64,000 nt of DNA from Lingula anatina (GCA_051362555.1 CM120648.1:1713721-1777720), one strand, 5' to 3'. Numbered from the stretch's first letter, positions 3,309-52,700 are shown. Translations and numbers: made by a program. Notes: a model not told the origin generated them from the sequence alone.

Positions 3309-5248
3309 TCAATCATTCTTTTTGTCAGAAATCCACCATTTAACATCTGGCCCATTACTTTCTATAGGTTTGACAATTTCCAAAACAGTGGGGAAATAAA
3401 TAGTATCTCTAATCTTATACTCCCTCCCTGCATCTCTAAAGGCAACCCTTATCCTGTCACGAACTGTCTTAGGGTTGTCCCAATTAGTCACAGGGGTATC
3501 TGAGGGAAGATCGTGCTGAGCAAATGAAATTTCTGGTTGTAAAAGTATATAGGCATGATCAGAGTCAAAAGCATATCTTGAGTGGTTAACTGGGTAGCAG
3601 GGTGCAAACGTCGTCACAAAGAAAGTGATTTTGTTGAACTGGAACACCCATCCTCTTTTGGCGATAAATGACTGCTTCATGCAATGCACGCCAGAAGGAT
3701 CGTAGTCTGATATTGTTGTCAGAACTCTCCGCACAGCTTGTCCAAATGTCTGGAAATGAGGAAGAAAGAATCGATTTAATCACAATAATATTAATTATTA
3801 TTATAGTAATGATGATGTATTGAAATCCTACTTTTCTTTAGAACTGCGTGGTATACTAATTTTTTTAACCATTTACTTGATTTTGTCCGAAGATAAAACA
3901 ATTTTCCTGCATGGCTCAAAAGAACTGGAAAAATACTAATAAAAAAGTAAGATTAAAAAAAACAAAACAAAACAAAACAAACAAAACATCTTATACAGTA
4001 AGCCTTTAGGGTCAACACTGACAGAATTTCCTAAATTCAAAACATCTGGATGTTCTGAGCACCTCCCATTTCATGAATTATGACAAAAAGGATCATTATG
4101 TTATTTTATTTAATTTCTTCTGTACAGAATTCATGAAACATTACCGTACATACCTGGACATTCTTGCCATAGTCTCCTGGAAGTTCATAGACAAAACCAT
4201 CCAGACCAAGAGGTTCACATAAACATGTAAACTTGAGGAAGGTTGGCACACTTTGATATATATTGTGTTCTGAAATAAATAAATAAATAAATAAATAAAT
4301 TAATTAATTGACAAATAAATAAATTAATTAAAGAATTGTGAAGATGACATACTATTGTTGAGTGCTAAATGAAACTAGTAAAATATGAGAAAATGGAAAA
4401 GCACTTTAAAACCTCTGCCAATGCAACTCAATTTTCATTATCATAAATTATTATTAATCATCTAATAAATTAGCATAAATCTAATTATTAGTTAATAAAC
4501 TTTAGTATGATTTAATTTTTCATTCTTTAATTACCTCATCTTAACACATGCCTTTATATGTACATACCTATACTTAAATCATAATTCCATTTCGGAGAAC
4601 CCCATAACCGTGCCTTCTTTGCAAATATGCATTCTGTGTTCATTTTCAGACTCTCAAAATTTGCTAAAGAGTCAACGTCCTCTGCATCATAGGTCACAAG
4701 TTCAGTGACCTTGTGCTCCATAAGGTCAATGACCTTTCTTGGAAGGTCATCAACACTGATTTGTGGCTTGCCTTTCAAAGGATTCCTATTGGATTTTGGT
4801 ATTGCATCTCTTTTATCTTCAGCATCATTTAATGCATAAAGTGAAACTGAAACAAAATAAAATAAAAATAGGTTTTTGGTTTGGTACAGCAAATGAGCTA
4901 ATTCGAAAAGAAATTAAAATAATTCATTTTTACAGAGTATTTTTACCTTATTTCTCTATGTACCCCAAGCCTTTTTAAAACAATCAAAATACATAGTAGA
5001 CCAGCTTTTAGACATGCCCCAAGCTTTAAATTTTCAATTTTGGCAATCATGGTCCTATTAAAATTTTCCATTTTACAGTTATTCAGTAGGTGGCGAATAT
5101 GCTTGTATACACACGTACCTAACAATGCCACAAATGCAGTCAAAGAAGACCAAGATATCACAAGAGAAGTCCCCAGGAACCCTAAGAAGCATGAAATCCT
5201 AATACATAATATAAGATTGGATCTGTACTTATGAAGAGTGTTCCACAT
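3309..5248 (-). CDS. Uncharacterised YqcI/YcgG-like protein with N-terminal hydrophobic anchor (~321 aa, 4 coding exons)
   Basis: Coding exons 5248-5119, 4846-4568, 4269-4154 and 3749-3309 have GT/AG ends and compatible phases (966 nt). ATG context is ttcaccATG, with a probable non-coding exon upstream ending near 5633. Motifs ECIFAKK, GWVFQFNKITFFVTTFAPCY..HSRY, LLQPE.SF and VRDRIR resemble YqcI/YcgG (PF08892) blocks. The gene model is solid; the family call is by eye. Confidence 0.75.
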
Positions 5249-8551: not shown

Positions 8552-10285
8552 TAGAGAGCCTGTTAAATGTAACCTGTACACATTTTAGTGCCCAATAAAG
8601 ATGGTTATAAAATGGTATTAGTAATAGAATTGAGTTATACCCAGCCGGCTGCAGCATTCTGGCCTCATCACACGCCATTCTGCAGCTTACCTATTACCAG
8701 CATATTCCACCTACCTCTGAGTCAGCTGTTTTGACAGGCATATTGTTTTCAGTTATGCTGGTTTACATCAGCCACACAGAGAGGTATATTGAAATATGCA
8801 GGTAGTAGAGGTGTGTTTTACATAGACAGAAATTCAATGTCTTATGTATTTCCCCTATTTTAGGTCTCTGAGCTACATGCGCTTGAAATAATTTCAATGC
8901 AGTTGAATCCTCTGGTCCTGAGCCCCTGTACTCCTATTGGCTATCATAAACAAACTAATTATTTGGATGGCAAATTGGAGTTTTTTTAAAAATTAAAAAT
9001 TAAATTTCTGGGTTTTGACAGTCAGTTTGATCACAGTCCAGAAGACAAAGCAATGTACAAGCTAGGCACTCAAAAAAGGACTTTTTATATAAAAAATACA
9101 TAAGTGCAAGCATCTCGTAAATTTGATTTATTTCCATTATCTGTGATGATAATAAACACAAAGAAAATTATGTAATTGGGCATATTGCTAGTAAGTAATA
9201 ATTTCTTTAGAATGATATTGTAGAAATTTGCCTCCAACACATACACCAAAAGCCCCCTGTATGATCTCATTTTCTAACATTCGAGAGAATTTCTCATTGT
9301 CCTTTTCAAGGTAGCACTTAGCCTTGGCAGTGTCATTGGTCACTGCAGACCGCATTATATAATATTTTGGACACTATAGTTATCTATATGGCTGTATATC
9401 TTAGTGTGGACATATTTGGTCACCCTGGGCAAACATTTTATGTGAAACCAGGAGGTGAAAAATCGGCACATTGTATTGTGCTGGGGAAGATAGTCCCGTC
9501 AGGATCCAAATTAAGGTACCTGTTATATAGTTTAAATGTGGCATAAAAAGTACTAGCATATAACAGACACAGAGTTTATTTCATGGAGATCAAATTCATA
9601 CATATACTTACTTTACATTAGTGTGCATGGAAAAAAGTAAGAAACACACATTTTATAAGGAATATTCAGTTCAAGAGGATATATATATACATATATAAAC
9701 CAATCAAAATTTCATGAATGTTAATTAGCCATGGCAAGTTAATGCATGATGGTTTCCTCAAGAAGTTATAAAGAAGTTATAACTTCTTGGTTTCCTTAAT
9801 GCTGCTTGTATCCAGTTTTATACTTTAAATGGCTTGTAATTTGCATAGATCTACAATTACTTTATATCTTATCCCAAGTTATTTTTCCACAAGATCAATT
9901 CACAACATATTTGACTTTTTAATATGCTGGTACTGTAGTGTGTTCATGTTGGTGATATTTATGGTTTTAGCATTTGTGTTTTTAAAGCCCCTGTGACACT
10001 TCAGACATTGGGCTTGCAATTAGAGCTTAGAAAATAATTTTTTGCCTACTCCCCCCCCCCCCCTTATTTTTGAAACTTTGACAATATAAGACAGTCAAAA
10101 TCAAAACCATGCATCAGTGTTACTGATCTTTAAATATTCCCAAGTGAGAGAGCTTTTTCGTTTCTTACATGTTGTGGTCAAAATTGGTTCTGTACTAGTA
10201 AGTAAACACAATAATGGTGTAACTGGGGCTTCACATTTCAAGAATTAATTTTATTATTCTTTTTTCTCTTTCTGTAAGTGACGAA

Positions 10286-13200
10286 ATGGAGTGTCACAGC
10301 ATGAAAGACCCTCTTGGCGTTGCCTTATTCGGTCTGGGACGAGCTGGCATGATACATTTCCTGAACCTGATTCGCTGCTACCGCGTTCAGCTGAAGTATA
10401 TCATTGATCTCGATATCCCCAAGATCAAACAGTTGCTAATACAGTATCACCAGCGTCATACTGTTGCTCTTACTCCTGAGGAGGCAGAAAAAGTATACAA
10501 CGATGAAAGGTGGGTTCTGTTGCATACAGGTCTATATTTTCGGTAGTTCTGTAAATCTGGACTCAATTGCACACAAGTTTCAATTTTGTCTGATATGTCG
10601 CCCTCACTTACAAGTAAATTGGCTATCTCTGTTGATAGAGGGTAGGGAATACCCCCCCCCCCCTTAATCACCAATCTCCAAGATTTAAACAGCTCAATCA
10701 CCAATCACCAAGATATATTCAGGCCAATCACCAATCACCAAGAATTCCTGAATCATGTTTCACGCAGAATATTGGGCTAAAATAACGCATCACGCTCGAA
10801 AAATAAGGCCAATCACGTGTAACGCAAAAGGTATTCCCTACCTTCTTGATTTGACACTGGCTGAAGAGAGAGATATTATCTTTTGTTGATAATTATTATT
10901 TATTGCATGAATTTTGCTTTTTCCTTTTGGCAACGATATCTTAAAAAAAGGATGTACTTTGTTTTGCTTTTAAGTTGCTTGAGTCATTAGTAGGGATGAA
11001 AAAAAAAAAAAACGGAACCAATCAAAAATATGCTTCAGTATTTCTCTTAAATATGTCGTAAATTTTTATGTGATTTTAAAGATGTATTTTTCTTCATTTA
11101 TCTAGCTTTCTTCTTAATCTTGTTTAGCTTTTTTTTAGGGGGGTGCGGCTGTTTTGTGTAAAATGACATCTGCTGTTACCTTTTCAGTCTTGATGCTGGA
11201 ATGATTCAAGATGTTTGACAGTTTCTGCTGACTTATTTGATATTATTTCTGTCATTTTGAGAGCACTGACTTTAACACAAAATCAAATATCCCCAACCAC
11301 ACTTGCAAAGAGTAGACTTAGCAGCAAATGCTGTCATATGTGCACCTTCCCTGCATTGAACTGTATGAATAATGAAAGCACTAATAATACAAAAAAAAAA
11401 AAAAAAAAACAATGTATCTTTGGGTTTTTCAGTTGCCATGTTGACAAACTCACAATAAAAATCTTGGAAAAAATGAATGTATAAAATTGCTGTAAAAAAA
11501 GAATTTTGAAAACGTAAGGGGTGTATGTACTTTGCCTTCACTGTAAATTATGATTTTTTTCACCCTTTGTTTTCAATTGTTTCTCCAATTTCTATGACGA
11601 AGAACTGCAAATTGTATTGTTGAAAATCTATGTTTTGTAGTTTGTAATTAAACAAATTTTTGATCATTTTTTCAAATTTATTTGTGTGAAATATCACATA
11701 TTATTATATGTGAATGGCTTAGAGGAATCTTATTCACATTTACTAGATCAGTGTTAAAGAACCTTTATTATTATTATTAGTTAGATGTGAGATAGGTTTT
11801 AAAAACTTTAAATAATTTGTGATCATATTGTGGTGCCCAGCATAACTTGTTAACTGTGATTTGAGTTCAGATCATGAAATTTTCGGTGATATTTATGGAT
11901 CATTTGAATGTCCATACTGTCATATTTTTTATTAGAACTTTTAAGTTTAATGTTCTAAAGACGAAAAAAAGTCAAAGTCATTTTTCACTGAATGTTCAAA
12001 TTAAAATTTCTAAAGACAGGAAAGTTAAACCATTAGAGAAAAGCCTTTTTGCCACCCTCCCCTAAAAATGTTGCTACTGTATGTCACCGAGGAGATTATG
12101 AAACAAGTAAAAGAAAAAGTTTAACATAATCTTTTATGTATTACAATCTTCTATTGATTTTTAAATGGCATCATATAGTGTGTGACAGCTTAATTAAAGT
12201 ACATATTCTGTACTAGTACCCTATTTCTATACATTTTGTGGTCAACCTGAAAGTTACACTGGATTCTTATTACTCTCATTTCCCCTTCCCTTTGCTATCA
12301 GAATCTGAAGTACAGGCCATCCCAATTTGTTTTGATCTGGAGTACAGGCCATCCCAATTTGTTTTGATCCAATCAGAAAAGGTTGGAAATGAAGTTGAAA
12401 AAAAAAAACCCTTGGGCAATTGAAACTTATCCTCTGGTTGGTTGATAGAGGAACATAACTTGGCACCAATGTTGAGCTAATCAATGGGATGGCCTGTTCT
12501 GAAAGTCTTGATAACATTGTAAGGTGGAACCGCGGAGGTGATTAGGATCTGGTTTTCTTAAGGGGCCTGTTTCACAAAATGATGAAAGTTTTTGTGATTA
12601 GCTAAGAATGCTTAACTTGGATAGTGCGGTATGTCATGTCAACCTTGTGATATCAGATATTTATATTTTATGTATATATTTAGAGGCATGAAAAACATTT
12701 CCTCAGCATGTCACTGGCATAAAGACGTTTCTGAAAATTTTACACTTCCTATCGAAATGACTCTCAGAACCACAGTAATTTGGCCTTAGCTCTTATTTTT
12801 GGGACTGATCACAAGAAGATAATCAGCCTCTTATATTTTTTGTGAAACAATTTGGTTGACTATATGTGATTGTTGGCAATCTTAGCTAAGTCAAATAATC
12901 AACCAACGATTCTTTGATATTTGTGAAACAGCCAGGACCATATTGTATTGTACGTGGCATGCTTTAAATTTGTATATATTTACAGCGTTGGAGCAGTATT
13001 TGTCTGCTCCCCAACTTTTACGCACCAGGAGATAGTGCAGAATGCACTCAGAAAGGGTTAGTCATCGGATCATTTGCTGTTGAATTTATTTGGAGTAAAT
13101 TTTAATTAAAAAATAAAGCAAAATAATAATTTAATTTCTAAGAATATGATAACATTATTGATCAGAAGTATTTTTGGTATACTGGGTAGTTGGGACACAT

Positions 13201-16200
13201 TTACATGAGCTTATACTAATTTTCAGAAAAAAAACAAGAGTTGACCAAGAACATATATTGTTAAAGTGTTGAGTGCAACTAGTATTATAGGAAAGATTGA
13301 ATGGTACCATTGTATGCTAGTTGCTGGATTTATTTATTTATTTACTTTTTTGCACTATTAAATTATCAGTTTTTTGTTTGTTTACCTCTAAGTGATGGTC
13401 CAAGAGCTACCCTGACATTATGAAATCTTTCTTCTCTAAATTTATAACAAACGGCTTTGTGAAAAACAGTCATAGTCATTAGCAATATATATATTTTGTA
13501 TCTGTGTGTGTGGGTTTGTATGTGTGCATTTGACTAGAAACAAACAGGTTTAAGGATATTGTTAGCCTTTGCCAAAAACTCCTTATTTACTGCCTTGCAT
13601 ACATTCTTTTGGATGACAGATAAATTATTAGTGTTCAGAGACTAAATTAATCAACAATTATACATGTGTCATCTTACGGGGACATCATAATTGCGATTTT
13701 GGAATTGAAAATGGAAAATTGAAAAATCATTTTCTCAAATTTCTCCTCTACCAGAGCATCCATGGACACCATTTTGATGCCAATTTAATGACACCATTAA
13801 GTACTCCAAAACCAAGCCAGTGATTTTTTCCAAAAGTTCAGATTTTATCAATGATAAAGCAAAATAATACTTTTGTTTAATAAAAATCTGTAATTAAGGG
13901 CTCATAACTCTATAACAAAAGTGCTTAAACCAAAATGATAGCACAGGGTTGTAGCCTATTCATTTGTGGTCAACTATGCCAATTTTCCTAATAAAATCTT
14001 GTTCAGGGATAAAGTTACGCCCCATTTTGATTGCCATCTCACCTAAAATAGAAAGGTGTTAAGTTAAAAATTAAAACTTTGAGTTGCCTATGCCTATACA
14101 TTGCAACAAAAAATATAAATGCCAATATTTTATATTTTGGAAGGGATTTGTGTTGTTTTATATCAGCAGAAAGATTGATGCAATATTGAATAATTAGATG
14201 CAGGAAAAAACTCATATTTGGTATCTGGATGAAAATAAAGGCTTACAATACCCTTAAGGAATTAAATACTATTAATCTGAGATTGCTGTAACACATTTAT
14301 AAAAATTTCCCTTTTAGTTTCATTTTTTTGTACTTTTCCAGGGAAAGGTGTTTTCTGTGAAAAGCCAATTTCACAAGATATTGCTGGAACTGAGGCATGC
14401 TACGTAGAATCGGAAAAAGCTGGGAAACCCTTGTTCTGCTCGTTCAACAGGTAGGAGCCTGCTTCTGGAGTCCTAGAACTAGCCTAGATAAGTCAGTACC
14501 AGTCCACTTGACTATAAATCATCTTTTATTGTTTCCATTATACATTCAACTGAACTGGGGGAAGGTCCCTCATTATGCACTGGCATCAGCCCCCCCCCCC
14601 CCCAAAAAAAAAAAAAAAGAAAAAAAAAAAATTCTCAAAAATCCCAAAAAAGTTCATGATTCTGTTTGCAGGAGGTACGACCCCAGTATTAGAGGCATCC
14701 TTAATGGCATCGAGGAGCAGAATGTCGGTGACATCCACATGGTCAAAATGTGCAGTCGAGACTCTCCTCTACCACCTATGAGCTACCTGAAGATATCTGG
14801 TAAATCATCATCCCTCGGACAATGTTTTAAGTCATGTGACTAATTGGTTGGTGCGTTCACACCCAAACTGCCTGGCATTGCTCCAATCGTACATGCACTC
14901 AGGGGTGGATTGAGACCATCTTCTGGGTCCTCCGGAAGATGGTCAGATTTTCAAGTTTACATTAATGGTATATAAGTTTTTTGTTGGAAGACAGTCAAAA
15001 ATTGAAGGTGGAACTAAAAAAATAATTTAGAACACTGTCAGAAAATCTCTCTAGATCCGTCCCTGTGCACACACAAACACATGCACAGAGATTTTATGGA
15101 AACTATATTAACAATTAGACAAACAAGCGAAAAAAGAGATTTATTATAACTCAAAAGAATTTCCATTTAAAATTTTTTTTGGCAATTTGTAGGAGGCATA
15201 TTCCATGACTGTGCAGTTCATGACATAGACGTTATCTGCTGGATTCTTCACCAGTATCCAGTCTCTGTCTATGCTCAAGGCCACGCCCACATCAAGGCCA
15301 TTGCTGAAATGGATGATGTTGATACGGTTGCTATAACGATGAAATTTCCCAGCGGCGCCTTGGCGATGATTGATCTCAGTCGCAATGCCAGTTATGGCTA
15401 TGACCAAAGATTAGAGGTAGGTTTTATTCATGATTTCCATTCACCATTGTTTCATATAGAAAGTTGATATGGCTGTATTGAAATATGGAGTACGTAGATT
15501 TTTAATTACTTAGTTAAACAAAACTTTTTTTTGTCTGTGCAACTACCATATTTCTTAGTATTTCTGTGGAATTCTGTATAATTAATATAAATTTATATGG
15601 ATTTGTCCATTCTGTGTGTTGTTATTTTGATAGGATAGTCTTTTGCAGTACAATATTTCTGTTGTTTGATTTAATGCTTTCCTTTTTTTGCTCACTTTGA
15701 AACCTGATCAACAAAGAATGGGGAGGGGCAGGGGAGAGAGGAGGGCAGACATTCTGCCCTTTCCCTGACAGTTTATTCTTAAATATCATAAATTAGTAAC
15801 ATATATTAGCCAAAAAATATGAAAATATTTCAACAACTTTTTAGAAATTTAATCTCTCCTCCCACCACCACACACACACACACACACACACACACAAGAA
15901 AAAAAACAAACAATGAGGGTCTGCTGAAAATGTTTAATTTATCAGTAATATGTAAATGATTACATGAACATCTTCATAATCAGCTGTAAGGCCTCTATTT
16001 GCTCCAGTATCTAAATACAACACCTGATCAAGATGTAATCCAGCAATCAACATTCTAGAAAAAAATATGTAATCATTTGACAAAGGTTGTATTGTAGCAG
16101 TGCATATAACAGAATCATTGATGATTTAAGGTAACAGGAATTTTTGAATTGCTTTGAAATAGCTGTATTTAAAGTTTTTTTTTCTGTAGGTAGTTAAAAC

Positions 16201-16999
16201 AGTTCTTTTTCTCTGACCCTCATATCAGCAGGATTTTAATGTGGGATTCCTCTTTTGACAGGATCTTGCTTTTTTTGTGCCTAGGGTGAAATAAAATTTA
16301 GTTAAAAGTAGACTTAAATGTGAACTTTTTCAACACATAATGTACTTACATTTGCATGCAGTATAACTGTATTGCCTGTAATGGCATATAATATAGCCAC
16401 TGTATCATATATTGTGAGCCGATAATTTGTGAAATACTAGCTACCAGGTAGACTTATGATTTGCCTCTTGACTGTCCAGCTTATGGGGTCTCAATTTCAA
16501 TTTGTTGAACAGGCCCCAGTAGAGACAGAGTTGCTTTTCTTCATGAAACACTTACGCAATAGCGTAATTACGCAAAAAGGGAAATATAACTGCACATTTG
16601 GCCATTTACTAGTAAATTCAAGTTTTTTTTTGTGAAACATTAACGTGAAAAGACATAAAATGCAACTATCACAAGCACTATAAATATATCTACTTTGCCA
16701 AGTTGATTGAACTGGATAAAAAAATGATCATAAATTGATATTCTGCTTACCTAAACACAAGTGTCACCAATTTGGATGAAACCGTCGTTACAAGTACACT
16801 CGCAGACTGTGTAATAATAAATATAGCCCCAATAGTAGCAATATTTATATTGCCGCAAGCAAGTCGCATCAGGTTGGATATCACATTGAGCTGAAAAAAA
16901 AAATGCTCATTATAAAAACAGGAAAGTTTTGTTCTAGCCCAGTTTCTCAAATGTAAAACCAGTCTTTTAGTTGAACCAATTTTGATCTGTTTCAATTCA

Positions 17000-17046
<47 letters not shown>

Positions 17047-20000
17047 ATTCCATTAAACTGTTTCAGTAATTGTTGTTCATGGAATTTTATCCTTTTTTTT
17101 TCTTACTTGCAAAATAGGTTCAATACTGCCTTTTAATTGGACTATTACTGATTTGTGGAAGAAAAGGGAAGACAAGAATATTTGATTTTCTTTTACAATT
17201 GTTGGTACCAGTGTGTAGACTGAAATGTTGCATTTGATCAGTTGTTTTATAAACATCGGCCATAGGCAAAGGAATTTAAATTACTTAAAAGTGATCATAT
17301 CTGCAGGAAGAGAGGGGAAAGCCCCCCCCCCCTTCCAAAAATGTAATTCTTAGGCACCTGTTGTATGTATGGCACAGTTAAGTCTTAAAATCCTAATTAG
17401 CCAATTATATCACTGCCTCTATTGTAATTAAATTGGAAATAAGCCAGAAATTCCTTAAATAAACTTACTCAGTTGGCAGTTAGTCCCGGCGTAGGCTGGA
17501 GGGCATTGACAACTGTAGCCAGTGGTTAGTACCGTGCAGTTGCCTCCATTTTGACATGGGCCAGAGGCGCATGGATTTATAGCTGTTTGAAAACAAAAAA
17601 AACAAAAAAAAAAAAAAAAAAAGATTTAGCAGACATTTTATAGAATCTTGCTGAAAATAAGTTCCAGTACCTGAAATTTTTTTTTCTTTTCGAGGAAAAC
17701 TATTTATTGCTGTTATAATATTTATATGAATGTCTAACATGTATTGTAAGCCACATTTAATTTACCTGTGCAGTACCCAGCAGTTCCAGTAAACCCCAGA
17801 TTGCAGGTACATGAACAGTCGTAGTAGTAATAGTAGTAGCCGTAATAGTATCTGCATCTGTATACCAATCGGCATGATGCATTAGGGTCGTTATTGGGTA
17901 CCGTGCACGTGGTCTGGGCATTTTTTGGGAAGAAACCTAAAAAGATTTTTAAAAATGACAAAAAATAAGCCAGTAAATAATGATATTGAGGATTGATCAG
18001 AGAAGAAACAGTTAGTCAGAACTGAAAATGCAAAATGAGAATGGCAATCCAGCAATGCAGCTGTACTGTAGGGGAAAAAACTTGGACCAGTGATTTTTGC
18101 TATTATGATCAATGACTTCAGAACCGAATGTGACTCTTTAAAATATGTAGTTGACACCACTATTCCTAAATATTGAAACGTCCGAAAAAAGCCAGCTTGC
18201 CTCCTACCTTCAGCAGCACATCTCACTCTTTGGTCTAGTGATAACAACTTAACAATAAATGCTGGCAAAACCAATTTGAAAGAACCGATGTTTGAGTTTT
18301 TAAGAGATGATCACAATAATTATAGCACCTTCATAACATACCACTGCCCCTTAAAAGCTTTTTGAGACATTTTGTAATCAAACAAACAAAGAAACAAACA
18401 AACAAATACAACAATGTGATGAAGGCATAAGGTCTTTCATTGGCATATCTAAGAATAATAATGAAATTTAGCAAATTGCCTTTTACAACTTTGTGTTATA
18501 AGTGACATGTACTTACCTAAGACCATCAGGCTGCACAGGAACAGTGCTTTCAACATTTTCTTCAGCTTTAATTTAGACTTGAAGATTTTCTAGGTTAAAC
18601 AAACCCACTGTGTTTGGACCTCGTTAAAAGCGGTATCTTTCTTCAAAACAGCGAAGAAATACAGTGATAACTTAAGTTCAGCTGATGAGAAGTTATACCA
18701 AATTTGTCCAATGAGCACACTTTGATTCATTTTAAAATTAAAACTGACACCTCTGACACATCCTTCTCCAAAACTTGAATATATGTATATCGATGTATTC
18801 AAATACCCGTATATTTGTCAGCTTATATTCCAAAACATCCTAAACCGTAGGCACAAACGAAAACTAGAAAAAAGTTGAAAAAGTTAAAGACAACAAGAAA
18901 ATACATCTATTCCAAAGAGAGAAAAAAATATGTTGTAAGTTGGCAAGAAAGATTCAGAAGATTGCAGAAATTGACTGATTTTATCAATTATGCTTGTTTT
19001 GATAAAATTGGTCTCTTTGAGGTCACAGTCCATCACTTTATTCAGCCATACTGTTAAAGGGCCCGAGTTTTCAGTAACCCCTAAGAATCTGGGCATCCCT
19101 GTAGAATTTAGGGGATTGCAGCAGAGTGTTACGCACACTCAATCACTTGTAACACTTCAGGCCTGTAACCAGGGAGGTTCGGGGGGTTTGAAAGAACCAC
19201 CCTTTTTGCTGGGAAAAGGTCCACTCTGGGTAAAATCTGATCTATGTACTTGAGGATTGTATGGTAAAAGGTCCACTTTTTCAGAAAACGAACCCCCCCC
19301 CCCCCCCCTCTGAAATTGCTGGCTACGGGCCTGCACTTATAAGTGAATGTGTATCCAAGATTATATTTTACCATATTGAATGTGTACATTGTGAAAGGGT
19401 TTTTTCATAGTCTCTAGATAGGATTCTGTATTAAGCTTCTAAGATACTGAAATAGAATTATTCTTTGCTTATAGAGCCTTAATAATAGGAGTCAAACACA
19501 ACGTTTCAATCAGTTTCCCTTATAATTAGCTGCATGATAGTCAGACTATAACTCTCAGCAAAAATTTAAATAATGCCCTCTTCATTTTCATATTACAGAG
19601 ATTTTGGTATCATTTAATAATTATGGATAACACATGTTCCTTCGTTGCTTGAAAAGGGGTGGGTGGGGGGCGGCCTGCTCTGTGTGTGTGTGTGTGTGTG
19701 TGAGTGTGTGTGTGTGTGTTTAATGACAGTATGCATTCATACCAATTGTAATGGTGAATTCATTGTGTACTTATTGGGGCCGGAGGGGGGTGGGGGGGGG
19801 GGGGGGTAGAAGGAGATTAAATAATTCATGCCCCTGAAAGCCATTTTAAAGAGGTACTTTATGCCAATATTTGGCACAATTGACCAGGAATATTTTAAAT
19901 GTTAGTGAAAAGGTTTGGGTGAATTTTTGAACCCTCTTTTAAAGACACTGAAAGCTCACCTCTATATATTTTCAGCCTGACTCTGTGTTTTCATGTAGTA

Positions 20001-23000
20001 TATTCTTTTCAGAGAATGAAAACTGCAGGGGCACGCTGATAATGTATAGCTCTGAAAGCCTGGGTGCAGTGTTCGAAATTAACGCTGGACCGTCTGCCCG
20101 GTGTTGACAACTTTCAGAACGGGCCAAGAAGTTTTCCCACCTGGCAGACATTCAGTCCAGCTACTTTTCAAGATGGCTGGATCTTCTGTCCAGCAACTAA
20201 TTTTCCTAAGAGGCAAACACTGCCTGGGTGCATTCATGTTAATCTCACTAAATGTTTTGTTGTTGTCAGGACAAAAGGTATGCTGATTCTCTTGTGTTGT
20301 TGTAGGTATTTGGGACGAAAGGTATGCTGGTCTCGGAGAATCAGAGGTGCACCGGTGTCCAGCATTCCTGCACCACAGGCACCAGTTTGGCTCCTATGCA
20401 CTTCTCTTTCCCACAGAGATATGCTGACAGTTACGTGCTGGCTATGGAACATTTTCTTAATGTTATGGAAGGTAAGATTGTGTGTTTCCATGAGAAAGAA
20501 CAAAGAAAGTATATACATAATGGAAAAAAAAATAAATGAAAATAATGATAAACAAATTAAATGAATTAATAAAATAAGATTGTATGGTCCCATGAGAAAG
20601 AACAAAAAAGTATATAACCAGTATAATGAAAAGAAATGGAGAATGATCAATAAACAAATTATATCAATTATTGAAATAAGATTGTATGTTCCCATAAAAT
20701 AAAACAAATATGAAAAAAAATATATACATAAAAATCATAATGATAATAAAATATATAAATTAATAAAATAAAAAGTCAAAATATGCTTTATGTCAATGTT
20801 ACTCATGTGCAAAGAACACGACAGCACAGCTTCTCAAAATAATTTGAATCAAAATTTAGTTTCAGTATTGTCAAAAGACCAAAATATATGATATCCATTC
20901 CAATCTGTAGTAGTGAACCAAAACATTGGCCATTCGTATTTTTTTCTTTGAACCATTGCCGTTATGGACCATGTTATATATTTGCTAGGTGAAGCCAGCC
21001 AAAATATTTTGCCCCATTTAAAATACCATGCTTTACAGGTGAATAAAAAAGGTTTAACCTCCCGTTTTAAGTGTTTATGTTTGTTGGAATGTTTCAGTAG
21101 GAAACCAGGAGTCGATGTATAGGTAATGTAGGTCACCTATTTTTTAAGGGATATTATATCAAGTTGCCACCCTGGCGCAGCATACGGACTTATGGTGACT
21201 TTGTATAACATAGCCCGTTGTAGACCTATCTCTCTGCTTTACAATTCACGTGCAACTAAAGGAACACTGCATTTTGAAATTCAGATGTATTTGCATTTTC
21301 TCTCAGAGCATGATTTTATTTATTTATTTATTTAATTATTTATTTTATATTTTTGGACCAAACAAGTAACTAAATTTGTGAGGCTAATTAAGAAATGGAT
21401 GGTTGATATTTAACCCAAGTCCAAAGATACCCTCATGCTATTTGTATCATTTATTGAGATATTATCATGTTCATTGGCACAGGAATACAAATATTACTAG
21501 AGAATACTTTGTATGTAAAAGCCATGCGCCAGAGTTGGTCATTTTTCATGCAACAACTATCTGGAAATCTTAATCTTTTTCAACTTGTCCATGTCCTGCT
21601 GAGATTGTACGATTTTTGATTTTGTTCTCAGATGATTTCAAGTACCGTGACCTCTTTGTCTGTATTGGTTACACTTAGGTGAGCATTTATAATGCAAGCT
21701 ATTTCTACAGGTTTTATTAGTTTGTTTCTATTTCTTCGCATTTTTCATTCTATATCTGAAATTGTCTTGTGTTTCAATTAATAATTAGTTTTTTATGTAA
21801 AAATTTAAAAAATGAAAATGATCACTCTGTATTAATTGACACACAAATTATGTCCACTGTTTTTTATGCCGATCTTTAAAATGCTGAATATTGTGTTACG
21901 AGGCAAATGGTGATCATTAATAATGACGTCAAAGAAATAATCCTAGAAACGAAGGCAGTGTTTGGAAAGAACCAGTAAAGGGGCTGTCACAGTGAAAGTC
22001 GAAGATAACTAGAGTAGGAACAAGTCTGAACAGAATGTTAAAGTACCACAAAAACATCTATTGTAATTCAATATCAATAATCCTATATAACTACAACGAT
22101 GTACAAGGAACTGATATGTACAATGCTAGCTTACACTGGTTACATTTCCCATAATGCATCACAGTGGCTGGTCACTATAATTATGCAGATATATTGACTT
22201 CTAAAGGCATGTTGACTATTGATTATTTGCAACTCTTGCTAACAGAATGAAGGACACCAACTGGTGGAAAGGACTGCTGCAATTATGGTGGCAAGGGGAA
22301 CAATTTCAGGACCCATTTCTTTATGCTAAAGCTGGGCAGAATTTAGCTAGACAATTTATGAATCAATTTGTGCATCAACATTGAACTCGTAAAGAAAGGC
22401 CGCATTCAGAATTGTGGACTAGCTAGCTCGAGGGTCAAATATGGTCGACCCACTTGAATACTTTCCCACAGTGTCTATTAACGGATTAGATGGCAAGGTT
22501 TCTAGTGGGTCGCCATATTTGACCCGCAGATTTGTTAGTCCGCTGTTCTGAATGCTGCCAAACTTGGTGCTAGCTCTGGGCATCTCATCTTGCATGAAGT
22601 CCATGGTACAGCAGTACTTTATGATATCACAAAAGTCAAAGTAGTGCAGCCTGTTAAAAAATTGAAAAGACCCCTGGGAGGTCCCAGATGAGTAGTCGCC
22701 TCTTAAACAACTATCCCGTCCCTTACACAGTGGCACAGGAGCAGAGAGACAGATAATGTTAGGGTCACAGCTAGGCATAAGAGTAAGTCCATGCAACCCA
22801 ATGTTACAGGAATTAAAATATTACACAACAAAGGGATATCATAGGCGCTACTCAACATCCAGGTATGAAATAAATTTCAAGAGAAATACAGAGGGTAAGT
22901 CTGTGGAGGAAAGAGCTCCTCCTGATCCTCTCAGATCTCACAGGGGTCTTTTCTGTAATATTACAACTGACTAGCAGTGACCCCTATGGTCAGGAAGCGT

Positions 23001-26000
23001 GACAACACTGACATGCATCAAAACCCAATTCTTTAGTAAGGAAAACATTTTTTGTTCCTCTGTTATGTTCATACAATAAGTTCTGATCAAATACCAGTTG
23101 TTTTTTTTTTCTTGCAAAGTCAGAAGGTTGAGGAATCTGGGAAAAATGGTTAAATAATTTACATTTGCATTAGCCAAGATGCTAGATTTGATAAAACCAA
23201 ACATCAGTAATGGTTTGCTTTGATGTAAAACTAGCAGTTCTTCTGAAAATGGTGAAAAGAATAAAACCACATCAATCACGTTAAATTGAACAGACACAGT
23301 CAATATTTCCCATAAAAAAACCCAGCTGGTGCTTTTAAACCATTTAATCACTCATTTTAAATCAGATTAGTACAAGCGCACTCAAGAAAACAGCGGTCTA
23401 TAATTGGGATTCCTATACATTAGTACCGCAATACTAATGATTCATACAGACCTGCTCTGGCCAGCAATTTAACAGATTGGCCCGTCTTTTTATCCACCCG
23501 CCCCTTTTTTCAAGGAACACTTTATATGCACCCTTTGAAGAGATGAAAAAAAAAATGTTTGGAACTCTGAAATCCTATTTAATTTCATACTCTTGGTGAT
23601 TCCTTTTTAATCTGGGAAAAATGTAAGTGAAGCTAGAAGTAGAACACTCCCAATAAATAGGAAGGTCATGCACTGCACTCATACTAACATACTGGGTTCA
23701 GAATGCCCAAAACCTCCATCTTTTTTATCAGAAATGTTCAGTTGCCCTCCCCCTACTAATATCATGCATCAGCTGCCAGTGAACTAATGATAAGACTTTT
23801 AGAAGGCTTACAATTGGGAAACAAGTGGAACAGCATCTTATGCTTATTGCATGCAGTAATATGACACAAGTTTCATAGTCAAATTGTCACAAATATATAT
23901 CCAATCAAGCTTGGAAGGGGTGGATCCAAGTATTTTTTATTATAAGTCAAGCTGCTGGCTCCAGTTAGCAATCCTCCTACATAGATTTACAGTATACGGT
24001 GTTAAATAAGAAACGTCACACTTGTGAATAATAACACTATCTCTTTTCATCAAAACAATAATAATAATAATAACAATCAAGTCCATTAAGTACACATCTA
24101 CAAGAGGATTCTGTATAAAAATTGTTATTATCTGTCATCCTGCTTGGGGGGAATAGTTACAAGCAGTTTGGGATTCCAATTTCCATGTTTCATAAAAAAA
24201 AGCATCTCAATAGATGACAGAAGTTTTTTTCCTCAGACAAGTCACGATACAGATAATACAGTCAGTCTTTCATTTCTGAATTTTTTTAAAGTTCGGTTAC
24301 GAGTCCTCCGGTTTCCCCGATGTCTCTAAATCTTCAACTTGCTCCTGTCCTTGCCCCTGCTCGTCTGCTTGCATGTCCGACGTCCACAGTGTCAAGTTGT
24401 CCCGGAGTAACTGCAGTATGAGCGTGGAATCCTTGTAACTTTCATCGTTCAAGCTGTCCAGCTCTGCTATGGCGTCATCGAAAGCTAATTTGGCTATTTG
24501 ACATGCCTTGTCCGGGGCGCCCAGGATCTCGTAGTAGAACACGGAGAAGTTCAGGGCCAGGCCGAGGCGTATTGGATGCGTAGTCGCCAGGTCAACTTTG
24601 GCGGTTGTGGTGGCAGAATCATAGGCGATCAGACTTTTTTCCGCAGCTTCCTTTCTCTGTGCGCCCGTTGCAAACTCGGCAAGGTATCGATAATAATCAC
24701 CCTTCATTTTGTAATAGAAAACTTTCGATTCTCCGCTGCCCGCTGAAGGGATGAGGTGTTCGTCCAACACGCTTAAAATATCATTACAGATATCTTTTAG
24801 TTCATTTTCCACGGTCAGTCTGTAATCCTTTATCATTGGTAGTTTCTTGGGATCATCAGCTTGAGCTTGCTTTGTTTCTATACTGCTAATAATTCGCCAA
24901 GATGCCCTTCTTGCACCAATTACATTCTTGTAAGCTACAGACAGGAGGTTTCTCTCTTCTATCGTCAGATCAATATTCTGCTGGGCAACTATCTTCATCT
25001 CCTCCACCATTTCATCGTACCTCTCAGCCTGCTCAGCTAGCTTGGCGCGGTAAACACGATCCTCTCTGTCTACCATGTTCGCTAGGTTTATGGAGCCGGA
25101 CGATCAGAAATATTATTAATTGTTTACCGCTTCTGGAAATAAAGAACAAGATGGCCGCGCCCGCCAACAGGTTACCTCGATCAGTAATGGAATGTGTCAC
25201 GTGATGCTGAGCCGCCAATGAGAAATCTGTAAATATTGCACTCCGTTATAGGCATATACATATTTTGTCGCTTATTATGATTAATTAGATATTATGTTAA
25301 GTTTGTACGTGTTTCATTCATAGTTTCAGTAGGTTTGGCCTTGAATTTTAGGGTGCAATAATCCAATCAAACAAACTTGATGTTCAAAAACAGGTTACAC
25401 GTTAGTTACTAGGGAAAGTTGACACTTTTTTCCAAGTATCTCCCTCCCCCCACCGCATGACCCTTTGATTTTCAATATCTTTTCTCAATTAATATGTGTA
25501 GTGACTTTGAGCAACGTCTCAAGTATTCAAATAATTTAGTTTTGCCATTCATTTACTGAATTATCGATGTATTTTACATGAAATTTATGCGATCCAAATA
25601 CTGCGAAAGCCGGCTCATTGCTGGGGTGAAAATTTGCTGCTATCTCATTGGTCAAAGAGCTTGAAGATTAAAAAAAAAATTAGTCAGTGAATTCCCAATT
25701 TAATCTACATCCTTCTGAATAGTAAGGAAATTCATCAAAGTCAACACATAACTTAATTTGGATTAGCATTAAAAATTAGAGAGTTATTTAAAGGGAAGTG
25801 ATCAAATTAATTAGAGCCAATTAATTTGGTGAGGCATAAAAAAAAGAAAGAAGAAGAAAAAAAGTTAATCTAGCTAGATCTTTACCTATAATGTATAAAT
25901 AGGATAGCATTTCGACCCAATTGTTTTGTGAGAAGAGTCCACATTGATTAGTTGAGAAGTAACATCTAACTTAATTTTTTTTGCCTTGAAATGGTGAGCT

Positions 26001-48235: not shown

Positions 48236-49693
48236 TTAACAACAAGCTTCCAAAAACTCCACGGCTTTCAACAGTCCAGACATATCTGCCCTCCTCAGCA
48301 GGGACCTCTTCAACTGCTGCCGACAGTTCATGTGGGAACAGAATGACCTCCCCGGGCTGAAAACGACCTCGGCAGTCAAGGTCAGAAGCCAGGTCATGAG
48401 GATCCCCCTTTGCAGATTGTTCTGGTTTTGGTTGCCCCCAGAGGTCAGGACAGACCAGCCCAGTGGGAGCAGGTGCTCTTGCCAGAGATATAAATGGAGA
48501 AGGTTGGCTATGGTGTCTGCTTCAGGCCTCTACGAATAATAATATCATGATGCTATTAATAAAATGAGACAAAATCAGAAAATTTTTACTACAAACAATT
48601 GTGGGAAATAGAATTCACTAGAATCCAATAGTTTTCACTAGAATTAAACATATTTCATGTTTTGCATTACAAGTCAAACATTAAGCGTGTTACTGATTTT
48701 GCTCACATTTGTGCCATAAAAAATTCTTTTTTTACACTCTGTTCCACAAAGCAATCATTAAAAAAAAAATTGAACACACAAATTGCACACTTTTTTCCCC
48801 CCATTTGCTAAAAGTCTATTTGCTAATTAAAAAAATAATTTTCAAGAAGAATCTTTACCTCATTTGGATCCCTCATCAGCATACTATATACAGCCATCTT
48901 TATGAGGACTGGGATGTTATCTGTGAATTAGAAGTCAAAATGATATCAGTCATAAAATTTAACTTCACCTTAAATAGCCTTATTTTCCCCACAAATCGGA
49001 AAGAGTCCCAGTTAACTAAAACTATATAAAGAAAAGCAATAAAACATCTTTTTAAACATCTACTTGAAGGATACTTTAAACTACTTTTCTCGGGCAAAAC
49101 TGGGTTTCACTTTAGCAGAGGGAAGATATAAACACTACTGCTGCCTGCTCTTAATTCACATTCCAGTGAATGACTTAACTGTCAAATGGTACAAAAATCT
49201 TTAAAGTCTAAGTCTACAGTGACTGTCAACAGAATATTTCTTTTCTACCTGGCAAACAAGGCAAATCCTCCTCCTTATAGAACCTGCTGTCTAGGCCTTG
49301 GCCATGAAACGGGTTGGTCAGCCCAAAGATTTGGAAGGCCAGTGTGCCAACTGCCCAGAGGTCTGCCTTCCTGTAGTCAAGGTAACTGCACTGACCAGGG
49401 GAGGCACAGGCTATCTGAAACCCAGGGACAGTAGGGTTGAGTGAGGTCTTCAGGAAAAATAATACTTTTGACCTCTCTAAGGTTAAATTTGTGTTGGTTA
49501 CTTTTAAGGAATTTCTGTTTCAAGTTATTTTTTCAGATGAAGAAACCAATTTATGCCCGAACTCTCTCTCTCTTTCTCTCTCTCTCTCTCACACACACAC
49601 ACACGCACACACATCTGTTAAAATCTCACACCAACAAGTTCAAGAACATACTAGTAAGCATGCACGCACTTGCTGATGTGATCATGTATGAAG

Positions 49694-49735
<42 letters not shown>

Positions 49736-52700
49736 ATACCTCAGGAGCCATAAGAGCCGGGTTTCCACCCTTCCCTACTTCTGATGTCCAGTAGGGGATG
49801 ACCAGCCCATTCTCTTGGTCACACAAACAGTTGCCAAAGTCTGTGACAACCACCTGCGGAGAGGAATCTGGCAAAACAAAATAAATAAATAAATAAATAA
49901 ATAAATAAATATGAATAAATGAATATGAATAAATGAATAAAGAACTGAGAGATCAGCTCTCTTGTCACTAAATATTTTTTTTAAAAAACAAACAAACAAA
50001 CAAAAAAAAAAACTTTTCAGGTCAACTCACCTCTGTTGTCCTGAAGGTCAACCAGGATGTTATTGGCCTTAAGGTCACGGTGGGCAATCCCATGCCTGCC
50101 CATGTGTACCACTGCCTCCAGGAGCTGTGCCAGTACCAGGATCCTGGTCTCCAGGGAGGGGCTGTGAGTGGTGAGGTATTCCTCCAGGGTACAGGAGTAT
50201 CTGGGGAAACGGTGAGCATGAGGATTTAAGATAACGTAGACTTGTATCACTATTACTATTATATTCTTATTCTGATTTCAGGTACCAACTACACTACCAT
50301 CTCTCTCTCTCTCTCTCTCTCTCTCGTTTTTGTTATTAATAATACAAATGCAACAGGGAACATGTCCAGTGTTACTGAAATTTCAGACCAGTAGATTTTA
50401 GGAAAATGGTGGTCTGAATGGCCAATACGCTAAAAAGTTTTTGCACAGACAGTTCACAGGTTTTTAAGTTGTTCCTCTTGCAAAACATTCCCCCTTCTTC
50501 CCCAAGTGGGTTCTATTGCCGCCTACCTTTTCATCACCAGATACATGGTCATATTCCTGCCGCAGCCTTCTGGGTTGATTCTCTGGGGTAGAGGGCACGG
50601 GAATTCCTTCAAACAATCCTTGAGCTCTAAAACATCTCCAACAAATACTTGTCTCATGTCCACAATGTTGGGGTGAGGGGGAAGTTTCATTTTCTTTTTC
50701 ACATGGTTCCTATAAGTCCAAGATGATGAAATATATATAAAGTTTTAAAAAGAAAATAACATAGTTATACTTACTATTTATCCATAAGACTGTTATCTCA
50801 TATTTCTCAAAATGCAAAGGTTTTGACATATTAATACTTGTGCAATGATTGAAGGCAGAAAATCAGTTGCCAGACTATCATAAAAGATATTTTGACAAAA
50901 CTGCATCTCAAGCTACCAACTTTTTAATATTTCCATATAAACCATACTCATTCTCCCACATATCCATCTGAACCTACCCATTCTCTCACATATCCATCTC
51001 AACCTGCTGATTCTCCCACATATCCATCTGAACCTACCCATTCTCCCACATATCCATCTCAACCTGCCAATTCTCCCACATATCCATCTGAACCTACCCA
51101 TTCTCCCACATATCCATCTCAACCTGCCGATTCTCCCACATATCCATCTGAACCTACCCATTCTCCCATATATCCATCTCAACCTGCCGATTCTCCCACA
51201 TATCCATCTGAACCTACCCATTCTCCCACATATCCATCTCAACCTTTCCATTCTCACACATCTCCATCTCAACCTACCCATTCTCCCACATATCCATGTC
51301 AGTGTTGGAAGCAGCCATCTTGGCAGGCACCATTTCTTTGCTCATCTCTCTGAGGATCAGCTCTGCGTTGGATGCCACATGGTAGTTGAACATGACTTTC
51401 ACAGCCAATTTGTACTCCGTTGATGTGTTGTGATCTGAAATCAGTAACCCACAGCAACAACTTTAGAGGAAAAGAAAGCCAAGTTTACACCTGTCCAGCA
51501 ATAAAGTTAACCTCTTAAAAATATCCACAAAATGATCCAAACTTCGTAAGGGTCCTCTGGGTAAAATAACCACCACACAAAGAAGTGGTGCACTGCTCAT
51601 GACGGGTGCACTGCATTAAACTGATTTTTAAAACAAATATTTTTTTCAAGTAACGGAAAATTTCGCTCAGCACTCAATGAATATTTCATATGCCTGTATA
51701 ACTCTGGTCGCAGACCCTTGACCTCCTCTCCCCATATATTCCAATAACTTGATGCATTAACTACCTTGGTGATTCAGGCCCTGTGTGCCCGTCTCCAGGT
51801 CATCATCACTACAAAAACTGAAGTCAGCTTCATCATCTGATGACATCACCTCTGAGGACTGTTCTGATTGGCTAATCTCAGTAACCTTGACCTGGTCATC
51901 AAGTACAGCATCTTCCAATGTTTTCATGGCAACATCAGCATTCAAAGTAGAGAGCTCCTCTTCTTTTGGTATGTCATAGTCATTGAGAGAAAGGCTGGTG
52001 TTTGAGCCTGTATAGAAATAATCTGTGGGAAAATGAGATATCTAGATAATATTGAAAATCCATCTCCAAGAAAGTTCAAACAAGACCTAAATCAGTCTTT
52101 AACAAGCCCTCACATATCATATCATATTATACACTGTTCTGAGTATCATTTAGATATACATACATGCAATTCCATACAAGCAAACTCCACCTGGTTTTAA
52201 AAAATCTGAAATTGTTTATTAATTATGTCAAGCTCTGTGAGTAATCACCATGAATGATTTCCAACAATGCACTTCTACCTGTTAGTTTTGCCTCATACAC
52301 AGCTGCATTGCAGCCCTTTGCGATTATGTTTCCAAATGTATAATCTTCAAGGCAGAATCCAATTTCTGTTGAGCAGGGTTTGGCCTCAACATTTTCATAT
52401 GATGATTTGAAAAGCTCCTGTAAGTGGACAGAGGAAAAAATGTTCATTTAAAAATTTCCACGCATTGCCTTTCCCATTGTTTTTCTGTTAATTAATTTTG
52501 TCTAGATAAACTAGACAAAAATCTGACAAATGTACAGACATTAGTTATTAATTCTCACAAATGTTCAATTATGGAGATGAAATCGTGGCAAAATTTTTAA
52601 TAAGAAAAGTGAACTTGCTTTTCACAATGAAAATATAATCTATTCCAAAATGTTTACCCCAGGATGCTGTTTACAGTATCACTAGCCCTCAAATAATTGA

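What the first reader, a model, noticed from the sequence alone, without database searches (positions are those of the whole stretch)
16751..18556. Hidden secreted EGF protein with Cys-flanked poly-tyrosine loops
Seen, spliced product: [154 protein letters not shown] canonical EGF domain is flanked by two atypical ones. Each has 7 Cys, appears to lack the usual second EGF Cys, and carries an 11-residue Cys-flanked loop ([22 protein letters not shown]). Tyr makes up 20 of 154 residues. Known: Tyr/DOPA-rich EGF proteins act in marine adhesion and sclerotisation (mussel foot protein-2), and aromatic beta-hairpins also occur in antimicrobial peptides. Inference: a new module that displays an aromatic hairpin on an EGF scaffold, acting as a bivalent cross-linker, adhesive, cuticle, radula or shell component, or metal binder; the odd Cys could allow oligomerisation.
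Basis: partly seen in the sequence, partly recalled or inferred. Interest (0 to 1): 0.8.

Follow-up and report, generated by a model that had tools for sequence, protein, structure and literature searches.

The report
Tyrosine-fingered EGF protein of Lingula
A lamp-shell (Lingula) gene, spliced and strongly expressed in some RNA samples, encodes a small, likely secreted protein whose two outer EGF-derived modules are each predicted to project a long tyrosine-covered beta-hairpin finger, which likely zips molecules together into a tough extracellular material.

Summary
The gene is real. RNA reads show the junctions, a start near 18641 and a non-coding fifth exon. It is not hidden: NCBI holds near-identical Lingula anatina models, auto-named 'fibropellin-1-like' and 'delta-like 1'. 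No relative of the outer module was found outside Lingula. In both outer modules exactly 20 residues separate EGF Cys3 and Cys4, with x-Gly at the centre, and AlphaFold models a straight 12+2+12 beta-hairpin. In that register the inner cysteines do not face each other, so one spare Cys (C41, C126) is predicted mid-finger. 18 of the 21 Tyr sit on the fingers. The Tyr runs are not a microsatellite: finger length is conserved between the modules and in a lineage about 10% diverged. Expression is high in 3 of 7 runs laid and near nil in 4. It is absent from two shell proteomes and is acidic and Lys-poor, unlike mussel Pvfp-5. Best reading (0.45): a bivalent self-zipping, disulfide-locked matrix protein. 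Function is untested. New variant of the EGF module; interest 0.5.

The parts
18557..18641 (-). 5' UTR; main transcription start at 18641 (minor starts 18647-18656); no upstream ATG
   Evidence: Many molecules begin at 18641 in X7, X8, X9 (145 of depth 381 in X7); no ATG in 18656-18557
18517..18556 (-). Coding exon 1: ATG and hydrophobic core of a predicted signal peptide
   Evidence: Sequence and hydropathy up to 2.9; joint to exon 2 in RNA. Cleavage near residue 20 is inferred; no signal-peptide predictor was run
17766..17936 (-). Coding exon 2: end of signal peptide and atypical module 1 (7 Cys; 20 residues between C35 and C56; Y45-G46 turn; spare Cys41)
17469..17582 (-). Coding exon 3: canonical six-Cys EGF domain, predicted spacer
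   Evidence: Pfam PF00008 and hEGF; RNA
16751..16890 (-). Coding exon 4: atypical module 2 (7 Cys; 20 residues between C119 and C140; W129-G130 turn; spare Cys126), ending in TAG directly before a GT donor
   Evidence: joint at 16750 in RNA
15920..16280 (-).
   Evidence: Depth 454 in bin 15908-16208 and a joint from 16750 in X7; acceptor AG at 16281 read from the sequence and no long frame; ATTAAA at 15938

Best explanation
This Lingula gene encodes a small, likely secreted building block with two predicted tyrosine-covered beta-hairpin fingers at the ends of an EGF spacer, which likely zip to the fingers of neighbouring molecules and would be locked by the spare cysteine in each finger, forming a cross-linked extracellular material in one tissue or stage. 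Shown: the spliced transcript, the restricted high expression, the duplicated module exon, the 20-residue Cys3-Cys4 spacing and the Tyr clustering. Predicted: the straight hairpin, with aromatic residues on both faces (5+4 and 4+4). Inferred: the base of each finger is held by disulfides among the first Cys and the three lower hairpin Cys (C24, C35, C54, C56) plus the EGF 5-6 bond (C58-C69). That leaves C41 and C126 free on opposite hairpin faces, suited to a C41-C126 bond between molecules (head-to-tail chain) or within one (closed ring). Inferred from known invertebrate chemistry (own knowledge): peroxidase or tyrosinase may add dityrosine or DOPA links, and the flat Tyr faces may also stack on chitin.
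For: Both modules have 20 residues between Cys3 and Cys4 with x-Gly exactly central; their exons align without a gap over 117 nt (score 87; 0 of 500 codon shuffles reach it) although they are only 47% identical in protein. AlphaFold gives strands 33-44/47-58 (pLDDT 84-85) and 117-128/131-142, and the same turn for module 1 alone (pLDDT 90 at the tip). The seventh Cys lies one residue apart in the two modules, so each keeps a spare Cys without a fixed in-hairpin partner; the mature chain has an even 20 Cys. 18 of 21 Tyr lie in the hairpins. Among 33 coding differences shown for the diverged lineage, pN/pS is 0.26 and no Cys is altered; W129 is replaced by Tyr. Reads laid per million: 600, 172, 490 in X7-X9 against 1.2 in X2, and near nil in X1, X4, X5, where the neighbouring gene is covered; this on/off pattern at high level suits a bulk secretory product (inference). 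EGF-like domains recur in marine holdfast proteins (PMC12817120, passages), and Tyr-exposing Pvfp-5beta coacervates without DOPA (PMC9314366, abstract and passages).
Against: No experiment on function, tissue or disulfides. The model outputs give no coordinates, so pairings come from register alone; module 2 is modelled at pLDDT 59-67 and whole-chain pTM is 0.36. Neither RefSeq accession occurs in the 2026 shell-proteome supplement (0 hits; control accession 21 hits), and no 154-aa EGF protein is in Tables 25-26 of the 2015 shell proteome; trypsin gives only about one well-sized peptide, so this is weak. The protein is acidic and Lys-poor, unlike Pvfp-5. Several finger Tyr vary (Y39S, Y125S, Y131R), which a tight zipper might not tolerate. 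31 of 71 read differences in X7 were not displayed; if all were non-synonymous pN/pS would be 0.75. Expression is confounded with study and lineage: all three positive runs are from P3.
Confidence: 0.45

Rival explanations
1. A soluble bivalent binding protein: each finger is a protruding recognition loop, like the RGD finger on Del-1 EGF2 or a Tyr-rich antibody CDR-H3, that grips a protein or microbial surface (defence, agglutination, gamete or receptor binding).
For: An extended EGF loop that displays a motif has a precedent in Del-1 (RGD in EGF2: PMC8254313 passage; 'RGD finger' seen only as a reference title; loop geometry recalled). Module 1's best PDB sequence hits include antibody heavy-chain CDR-H3 regions (E 0.46-1.5, not significant). 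All 3 differences between the two RefSeq models fall in the fingers.
Against: Over all variable sites seen, 8 of 18 are in the fingers (p 0.16). Only two database models exist, so no repertoire is seen. Aromatic residues on both faces of an unshielded hairpin would favour self-association (inference).
Confidence: 0.22
2. A chitin-bridging linker: the flat Tyr faces stack on chitin fibrils and the two fingers tie fibrils together in chaetae, pedicle cuticle or periostracum, without much self-assembly.
For: Rows of Tyr at alternate positions on both hairpin faces resemble planar aromatic polysaccharide-binding surfaces (own knowledge). The Lingula periostracum and shell contain chitin (PMC13425148 section 8).
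Against: No chitin-binding domain in Pfam at E up to 10; not in the shell proteome lists; it does not explain the spare Cys.
Confidence: 0.15
3. A signalling ligand or antagonist of the EGF or Notch type, as the RefSeq names suggest.
For: The central EGF resembles Notch and Delta EGF repeats and has a C-x-S-x-P-C O-glucosylation-type motif (consensus recalled).
Against: No DSL, CUB or transmembrane part (sequence); the names follow from the single canonical EGF. Very high, on/off expression and no relatives outside Lingula are unusual for a pathway ligand.
Confidence: 0.07
4. A precursor of beta-hairpin antimicrobial peptides released from the fingers.
For: Aromatic hairpins of about 20 residues with some Arg or Lys resemble arenicin or tachyplesin in size (recalled).
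Against: Finger net charge is only +2 and +1 and there are no flanking dibasic sites (sequence); the mature chain has pI 4.5; the inner Cys are not cross-strand partners in the models.
Confidence: 0.05
5. A neutral TAC/TAT microsatellite expansion in a decaying EGF gene.
For: The loop 1 codons are mostly TAC or TAT.
Against: No tandem-repeat call there; gapless alignment of the two modules; no net length change in three RNA runs or two RefSeq models; synonymous excess among the shown differences, p 1e-4; high expression.
Confidence: 0.02

Closest known systems
EGF-like domain (Pfam PF00008; EGF_3/cEGF types)
   Same: Central domain is canonical. Outer modules keep the P-x-A-x-C and C-x-C-x-x-G-F...C motifs, lie on phase-1 exons, and the module-1 model aligns end to end with Notch1 EGF12 (35 residues, rmsd 2.1, 26% identity, Z 2.2) and Spitz EGF (39 residues, rmsd 2.4, Z 2.1) (weak Z).
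   Different: Cys2 is absent, the Cys3-Cys4 span is 20 residues against 8 in the central EGF, two new Cys are added, and the span is filled with Tyr.
Del-1/EDIL3 EGF2 'RGD finger' (PDB 4d90)
   Same: An EGF domain whose loop is extended to display a motif (review passage; geometry recalled). 4d90 is among the top Foldseek rows for the model (E 5e-3).
   Different: Del-1 keeps six Cys and shows an integrin motif at the tip (recalled); here the whole finger is aromatic, there is no RGD, a spare Cys is present, and there are two fingers.
Mussel EGF-type foot proteins Pvfp-5beta (PDB 7qab) and mfp-2
   Same: Small or tandem-EGF secreted marine proteins with exposed Tyr; Pvfp-5beta also has one module lacking a canonical disulfide (PMC9314366 passages). 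7qab matches the central EGF (E 1.2e-6).
   Different: Pvfp-5beta mixes Tyr with Lys along the whole protein and has a cationic face; this protein is acidic, has 1 Lys, and concentrates Tyr on extended hairpins. The match does not cover the outer modules.
RefSeq XP_013402724.1 'fibropellin-1-like' and XP_013412895.1 'delta-like protein 1' (Lingula anatina)
   Same: The same gene or its allele or paralogue: 153 and 150 of 154 residues identical.
   Different: The names are automatic and reflect only the central EGF; no description of the module was found in the searches made.

Membership tests
EGF-like domain (central module) | Six Cys in EGF spacing; Pfam PF00008 above gathering score | tested here: met
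   C-x4-C-x5-C-x8-C-x-C-x8-C; 26.1 bits against 21.5
Canonical EGF-like domain (outer modules) | Six Cys including Cys2, short Cys3-Cys4 hairpin | tested here: not met
   7 Cys, no Cys2, 20 residues between Cys3 and Cys4; no Pfam family at cut-off
EGF-derived fold (outer modules) | EGF-like C-terminal subdomain and overall topology | tested here: inconclusive
   cEGF 19.2 bits, below the 26.6 cut-off; end-to-end alignments to EGF domains at Z 2.0-2.2; ESM Atlas neighbours mostly EGF families at 0.85-0.87, a lead only
EGF-like domain (all modules) | 1-3, 2-4, 5-6 disulfide pairing | not testable with these tools
   Model outputs give no disulfide list; needs mass spectrometry
Delta/Serrate Notch ligands | DSL domain, several EGF repeats, transmembrane helix (recalled) | tested here: not met
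   No DSL in Pfam at E up to 10; stop after module 2 with a non-coding last exon in RNA
Fibropellins | CUB domain, many EGF repeats, avidin-like tail (recalled) | tested here: not met
   Only EGF-type families hit; 154 aa
Mussel foot proteins mfp-2 / Pvfp-5 | Tyr interspersed with Lys, cationic surface | tested here: not met
   1 Lys and 4 Arg in 134 mature residues, pI 4.5, against the description in PMC9314366
Mussel foot proteins mfp-2 / Pvfp-5 | Tyr converted to DOPA; secretion from an adhesive gland | not testable with these tools
   No tissue labels or modification data available
Lingula shell matrix proteins | Detected in the shell proteome | tested here: inconclusive
   Absent from the 2026 supplement (with positive control) and from Tables 25-26 of 2015 by length and domain; a poor tryptic map limits the test
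Beta-hairpin antimicrobial peptides (arenicin, tachyplesin; recalled) | Strongly cationic, disulfide-closed hairpin cut from a precursor | tested here: not met
   Net +2 and +1, no dibasic sites (sequence); inner Cys not opposite in the models. Activity not tested

The most novel reading that the evidence does not exclude
A brachiopod has built an antibody-like bivalent binder on an EGF scaffold: two protruding Tyr/Gly fingers that work like CDR-H3 loops, held side by side by a C41-C126 disulfide to form one aromatic binding site, with allelic or paralogue variation on the fingers that tunes what it recognises.
Probability: 0.1. Interest if true: 0.85.

Novelty: new variant of a known kind. 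Interest (0 to 1): 0.5.

Why it matters
It defines an undescribed EGF-derived module: Cys2 lost and the main hairpin grown from 8 to 20 residues into a double-sided aromatic finger with a spare Cys. If it self-zips, it is a compact, Lys-free design for a wet cross-linked material, distinct from mussel DOPA-Lys glue, in an animal whose chaetae, pedicle cuticle and periostracum proteins are poorly known. If it binds targets, it is a natural small scaffold that displays a long rigid loop.

Tried and rejected
No whole genome is held for this window, so paralogues elsewhere in the genome were not counted; within the window the six-frame scan found no further EGF-like exon. Homologue searches: module 1 against longer proteins gave 1 hit among 2 candidates (P0001); the full protein gave 1 among 6 candidates, itself; module 2 against longer proteins gave none; the two-module profile against 1.84 billion representatives gave 3 hits. 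Of these I dropped P0003 (repetitive aromatic-rich sequence, no aligned stretch) and P0004 (EGF-like repeat matching only the C-terminal 15 positions) after reading them. Shorter proteins were not searched. ESM Atlas gave no hit at 0.9 or more. Foldseek gave nothing at E up to 0.001, and VIA-align nothing at Z 5 or more. The homodimer prediction gave no verdict (score 0.00, controls not folded), which says nothing for or against binding. Literature searches found no description of the protein: searches returned 0 papers; searches listed none on it by title or abstract start. Three supplements of PMC13121700 held no accession or motif (it may use other ids). The 2015 supplement is held cut, bioRxiv supplements are closed, and the primary Del-1 paper is not held, so expression tables that could name the tissue may exist unseen. 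Earlier scan findings held nothing on this sequence. Rejected: a longer coding gene upstream (transcription starts at 18641, no upstream ATG) or downstream (stop kept, exon 5 non-coding); a Cys-closed 11-12-residue loop; a microsatellite.

Full report
Observation. The window is AT-rich animal DNA with 14-3-3, U-box, Mog1 and DFF40 genes. On the minus strand four exons (18556-18517, 17936-17766, 17582-17469, 16890-16751) with GT..AG phase-1 introns give 154 residues, 21 Tyr and 21 Cys. After a hydrophobic N-terminus (signal peptide inferred from hydropathy) come modules with 7, 6 and 7 Cys. The middle one is a canonical EGF.

Transcript. No indexed RNA holder was listed, but nine raw runs with the same species label were offered, and seven were laid. 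X7, X8 and X9 cover only the exons, at depths of hundreds. The exon 1-2 and 3-4 joints are listed; the exon 2-3 joint appears as loose ends that read the start of exon 3. Molecules begin at 18641, and no ATG lies upstream of the proposed start. A further intron opens right after the stop and leads to a non-coding exon at about 16280-15920. X1, X4 and X5 show near-zero depth on the gene while covering its neighbour; X2 has 15 reads, some intronic. Reads laid per million are 600, 172 and 490 against 1.2. Caveats: the three positive runs are one study, their reads are mostly under 95% alike to the window, only 6-30% of each run was read, and tissues are unknown. So restriction to a tissue or stage is likely but confounded with lineage.

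Identity and relatives. Module 1 finds one protein: a 154-aa Lingula anatina RefSeq model. Its cluster has two members, XP_013412895.1 'delta-like protein 1' and XP_013402724.1 'fibropellin-1-like', which differ from the window product at 4 and 1 residues. The gene is therefore annotated, but under names that reflect only the central EGF. Three word-index searches and one full HMMER search of 1.84 billion representatives found no convincing relative of the outer module outside Lingula. Brachiopods are probably thinly represented in these collections, so 'Lingula-only' is provisional.

Anatomy of the outer module. In both modules exactly 20 residues separate Cys3 and Cys4, against 8 in the central EGF, and an x-Gly pair sits at the exact centre (Y45-G46, W129-G130). 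The two exons align without a gap over 117 nt (0 of 500 codon shuffles reach the score), so they arose by exon duplication and kept the length while diverging to 47% identity. AlphaFold on P0002 alone gives strands 33-44/47-58 at pLDDT 84-85 and 117-128/131-142 at 59-67 (mean 64.3, pTM 0.36). Module 1 folded with the two-module alignment gives the same turn (mean 74.6). In this register C41 faces Y50 and C54 faces L37; C126 faces Y133 and C138 faces R121. The 'Cys-flanked loop' is thus probably not disulfide-closed. C35, C54, C56 and C58 lie on one face at the base, where C24 can join them. C41 and C126 stand alone mid-finger, on opposite faces by the standard hairpin rule. 18 of 21 Tyr are in the fingers, on both faces. 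Fold searches give only weak support for EGF ancestry: end-to-end alignments to Notch1 EGF12, Spitz, factor XII and HB-EGF at Z 2.0-2.2 among 16 rows with Z of 2 or more, and Notch and Del-1 EGF arrays at E about 5e-3.

Selection. One search lists 71 differing places for X7 and shows 40, of which 33 are coding. These give 17 synonymous and 16 non-synonymous changes, pN/pS 0.26, with no Cys altered; if all 31 hidden places were non-synonymous the ratio would be 0.75. No indel is listed in finger 1. In finger 2 a one-base deletion and a one-base insertion cancel and reflect a locally diverged stretch, which reads W129Y and Y131R. Y131R is shared with P0001. Variable sites are not significantly enriched in the fingers (8 of 18, p 0.16). 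The microsatellite explanation fails.

Mechanism. The simplest use for two rigid, double-sided aromatic fingers, each with one spare Cys, on an abundant secreted protein is assembly: fingers stack on fingers, C41-C126 bonds lock them, and oxidative Tyr cross-links may follow. This is inference (0.45). A soluble two-fingered binder (0.22), a chitin bridge (0.15), a signalling ligand (0.07) and an antimicrobial precursor (0.05) remain. Against a shell role, neither accession is in the 2026 shell-proteome supplement (PMC13425148: passages, section 8 and supplement searches). No matching entry is in Tables 25-26 of the 2015 paper (PMC4595640: passages, supplement search and part 9 of 22). Trypsin would yield about one usable peptide, so these absences are weak.

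Comparison. It works, by this reading, like EGF-type holdfast proteins (PMC12817120, passages) and Pvfp-5beta (PMC9314366, abstract and passages), but fails membership on Lys content and charge. As an extended EGF loop it recalls the Del-1 RGD finger (PMC8254313, passages; PMC3906135 and PMC11990869, passages and reference title only; geometry recalled). It is not a Delta ligand or a fibropellin. The likeness of finger 1 to antibody CDR-H3 sequences is not significant. Ten literature searches (listings and abstract starts) showed no description of this protein or module; subscription journals are mostly outside the library.

Verdict. Observation confirmed with small corrections; interpretation partly supported. 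A new, apparently lineage-restricted variant of the EGF module with a clear structural logic and untested function. Interest 0.5.

Noticed in passing
window 16751-16750 (-): The TAG stop abuts the GT donor of a 3' UTR intron that is used in RNA. The other module exons end in phase 1, so the gene may be the truncated front of a once longer EGF array (speculation).
   Followed up: partly
window 16821-16833 (-), codon 131: RefSeq model P0001 shares Arg131 with the roughly 10% diverged RNA lineage, while the window and P0002 have Tyr. This could be an old shared polymorphism or two paralogues.
   Followed up: partly
runs X7-X9 on window 13500-22500: Runs with the same species label differ strongly: X7 carries many fixed differences from the window, also in the neighbouring gene, that X1, X4 and X5 lack. 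This suggests cryptic species under one name.
   Followed up: no
window 24297-25103 (-): A 14-3-3 gene with its whole coding region in one open frame, no intron.
   Followed up: no
window about 10271-15600 (+): An inositol-2-dehydrogenase-like gene (weak NCBIfam hit), spliced in RNA and lying tail to tail with the EGF gene.
   Followed up: partly
window 3309-3779 (-): An exon with a weak hit to YqcI/YcgG (PF08892, E 4e-4), a family that I recall as mainly bacterial, here in an animal gene.
   Followed up: no
window 50932-51301 (+): A 30-bp tandem repeat, 12 copies, open in several frames; one frame gives a Pro/Ser/Thr-rich repeat. It lies near a kinase-like exon at 49626-49952 that looks PINK1-like by recall (no Pfam hit).
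   Followed up: no
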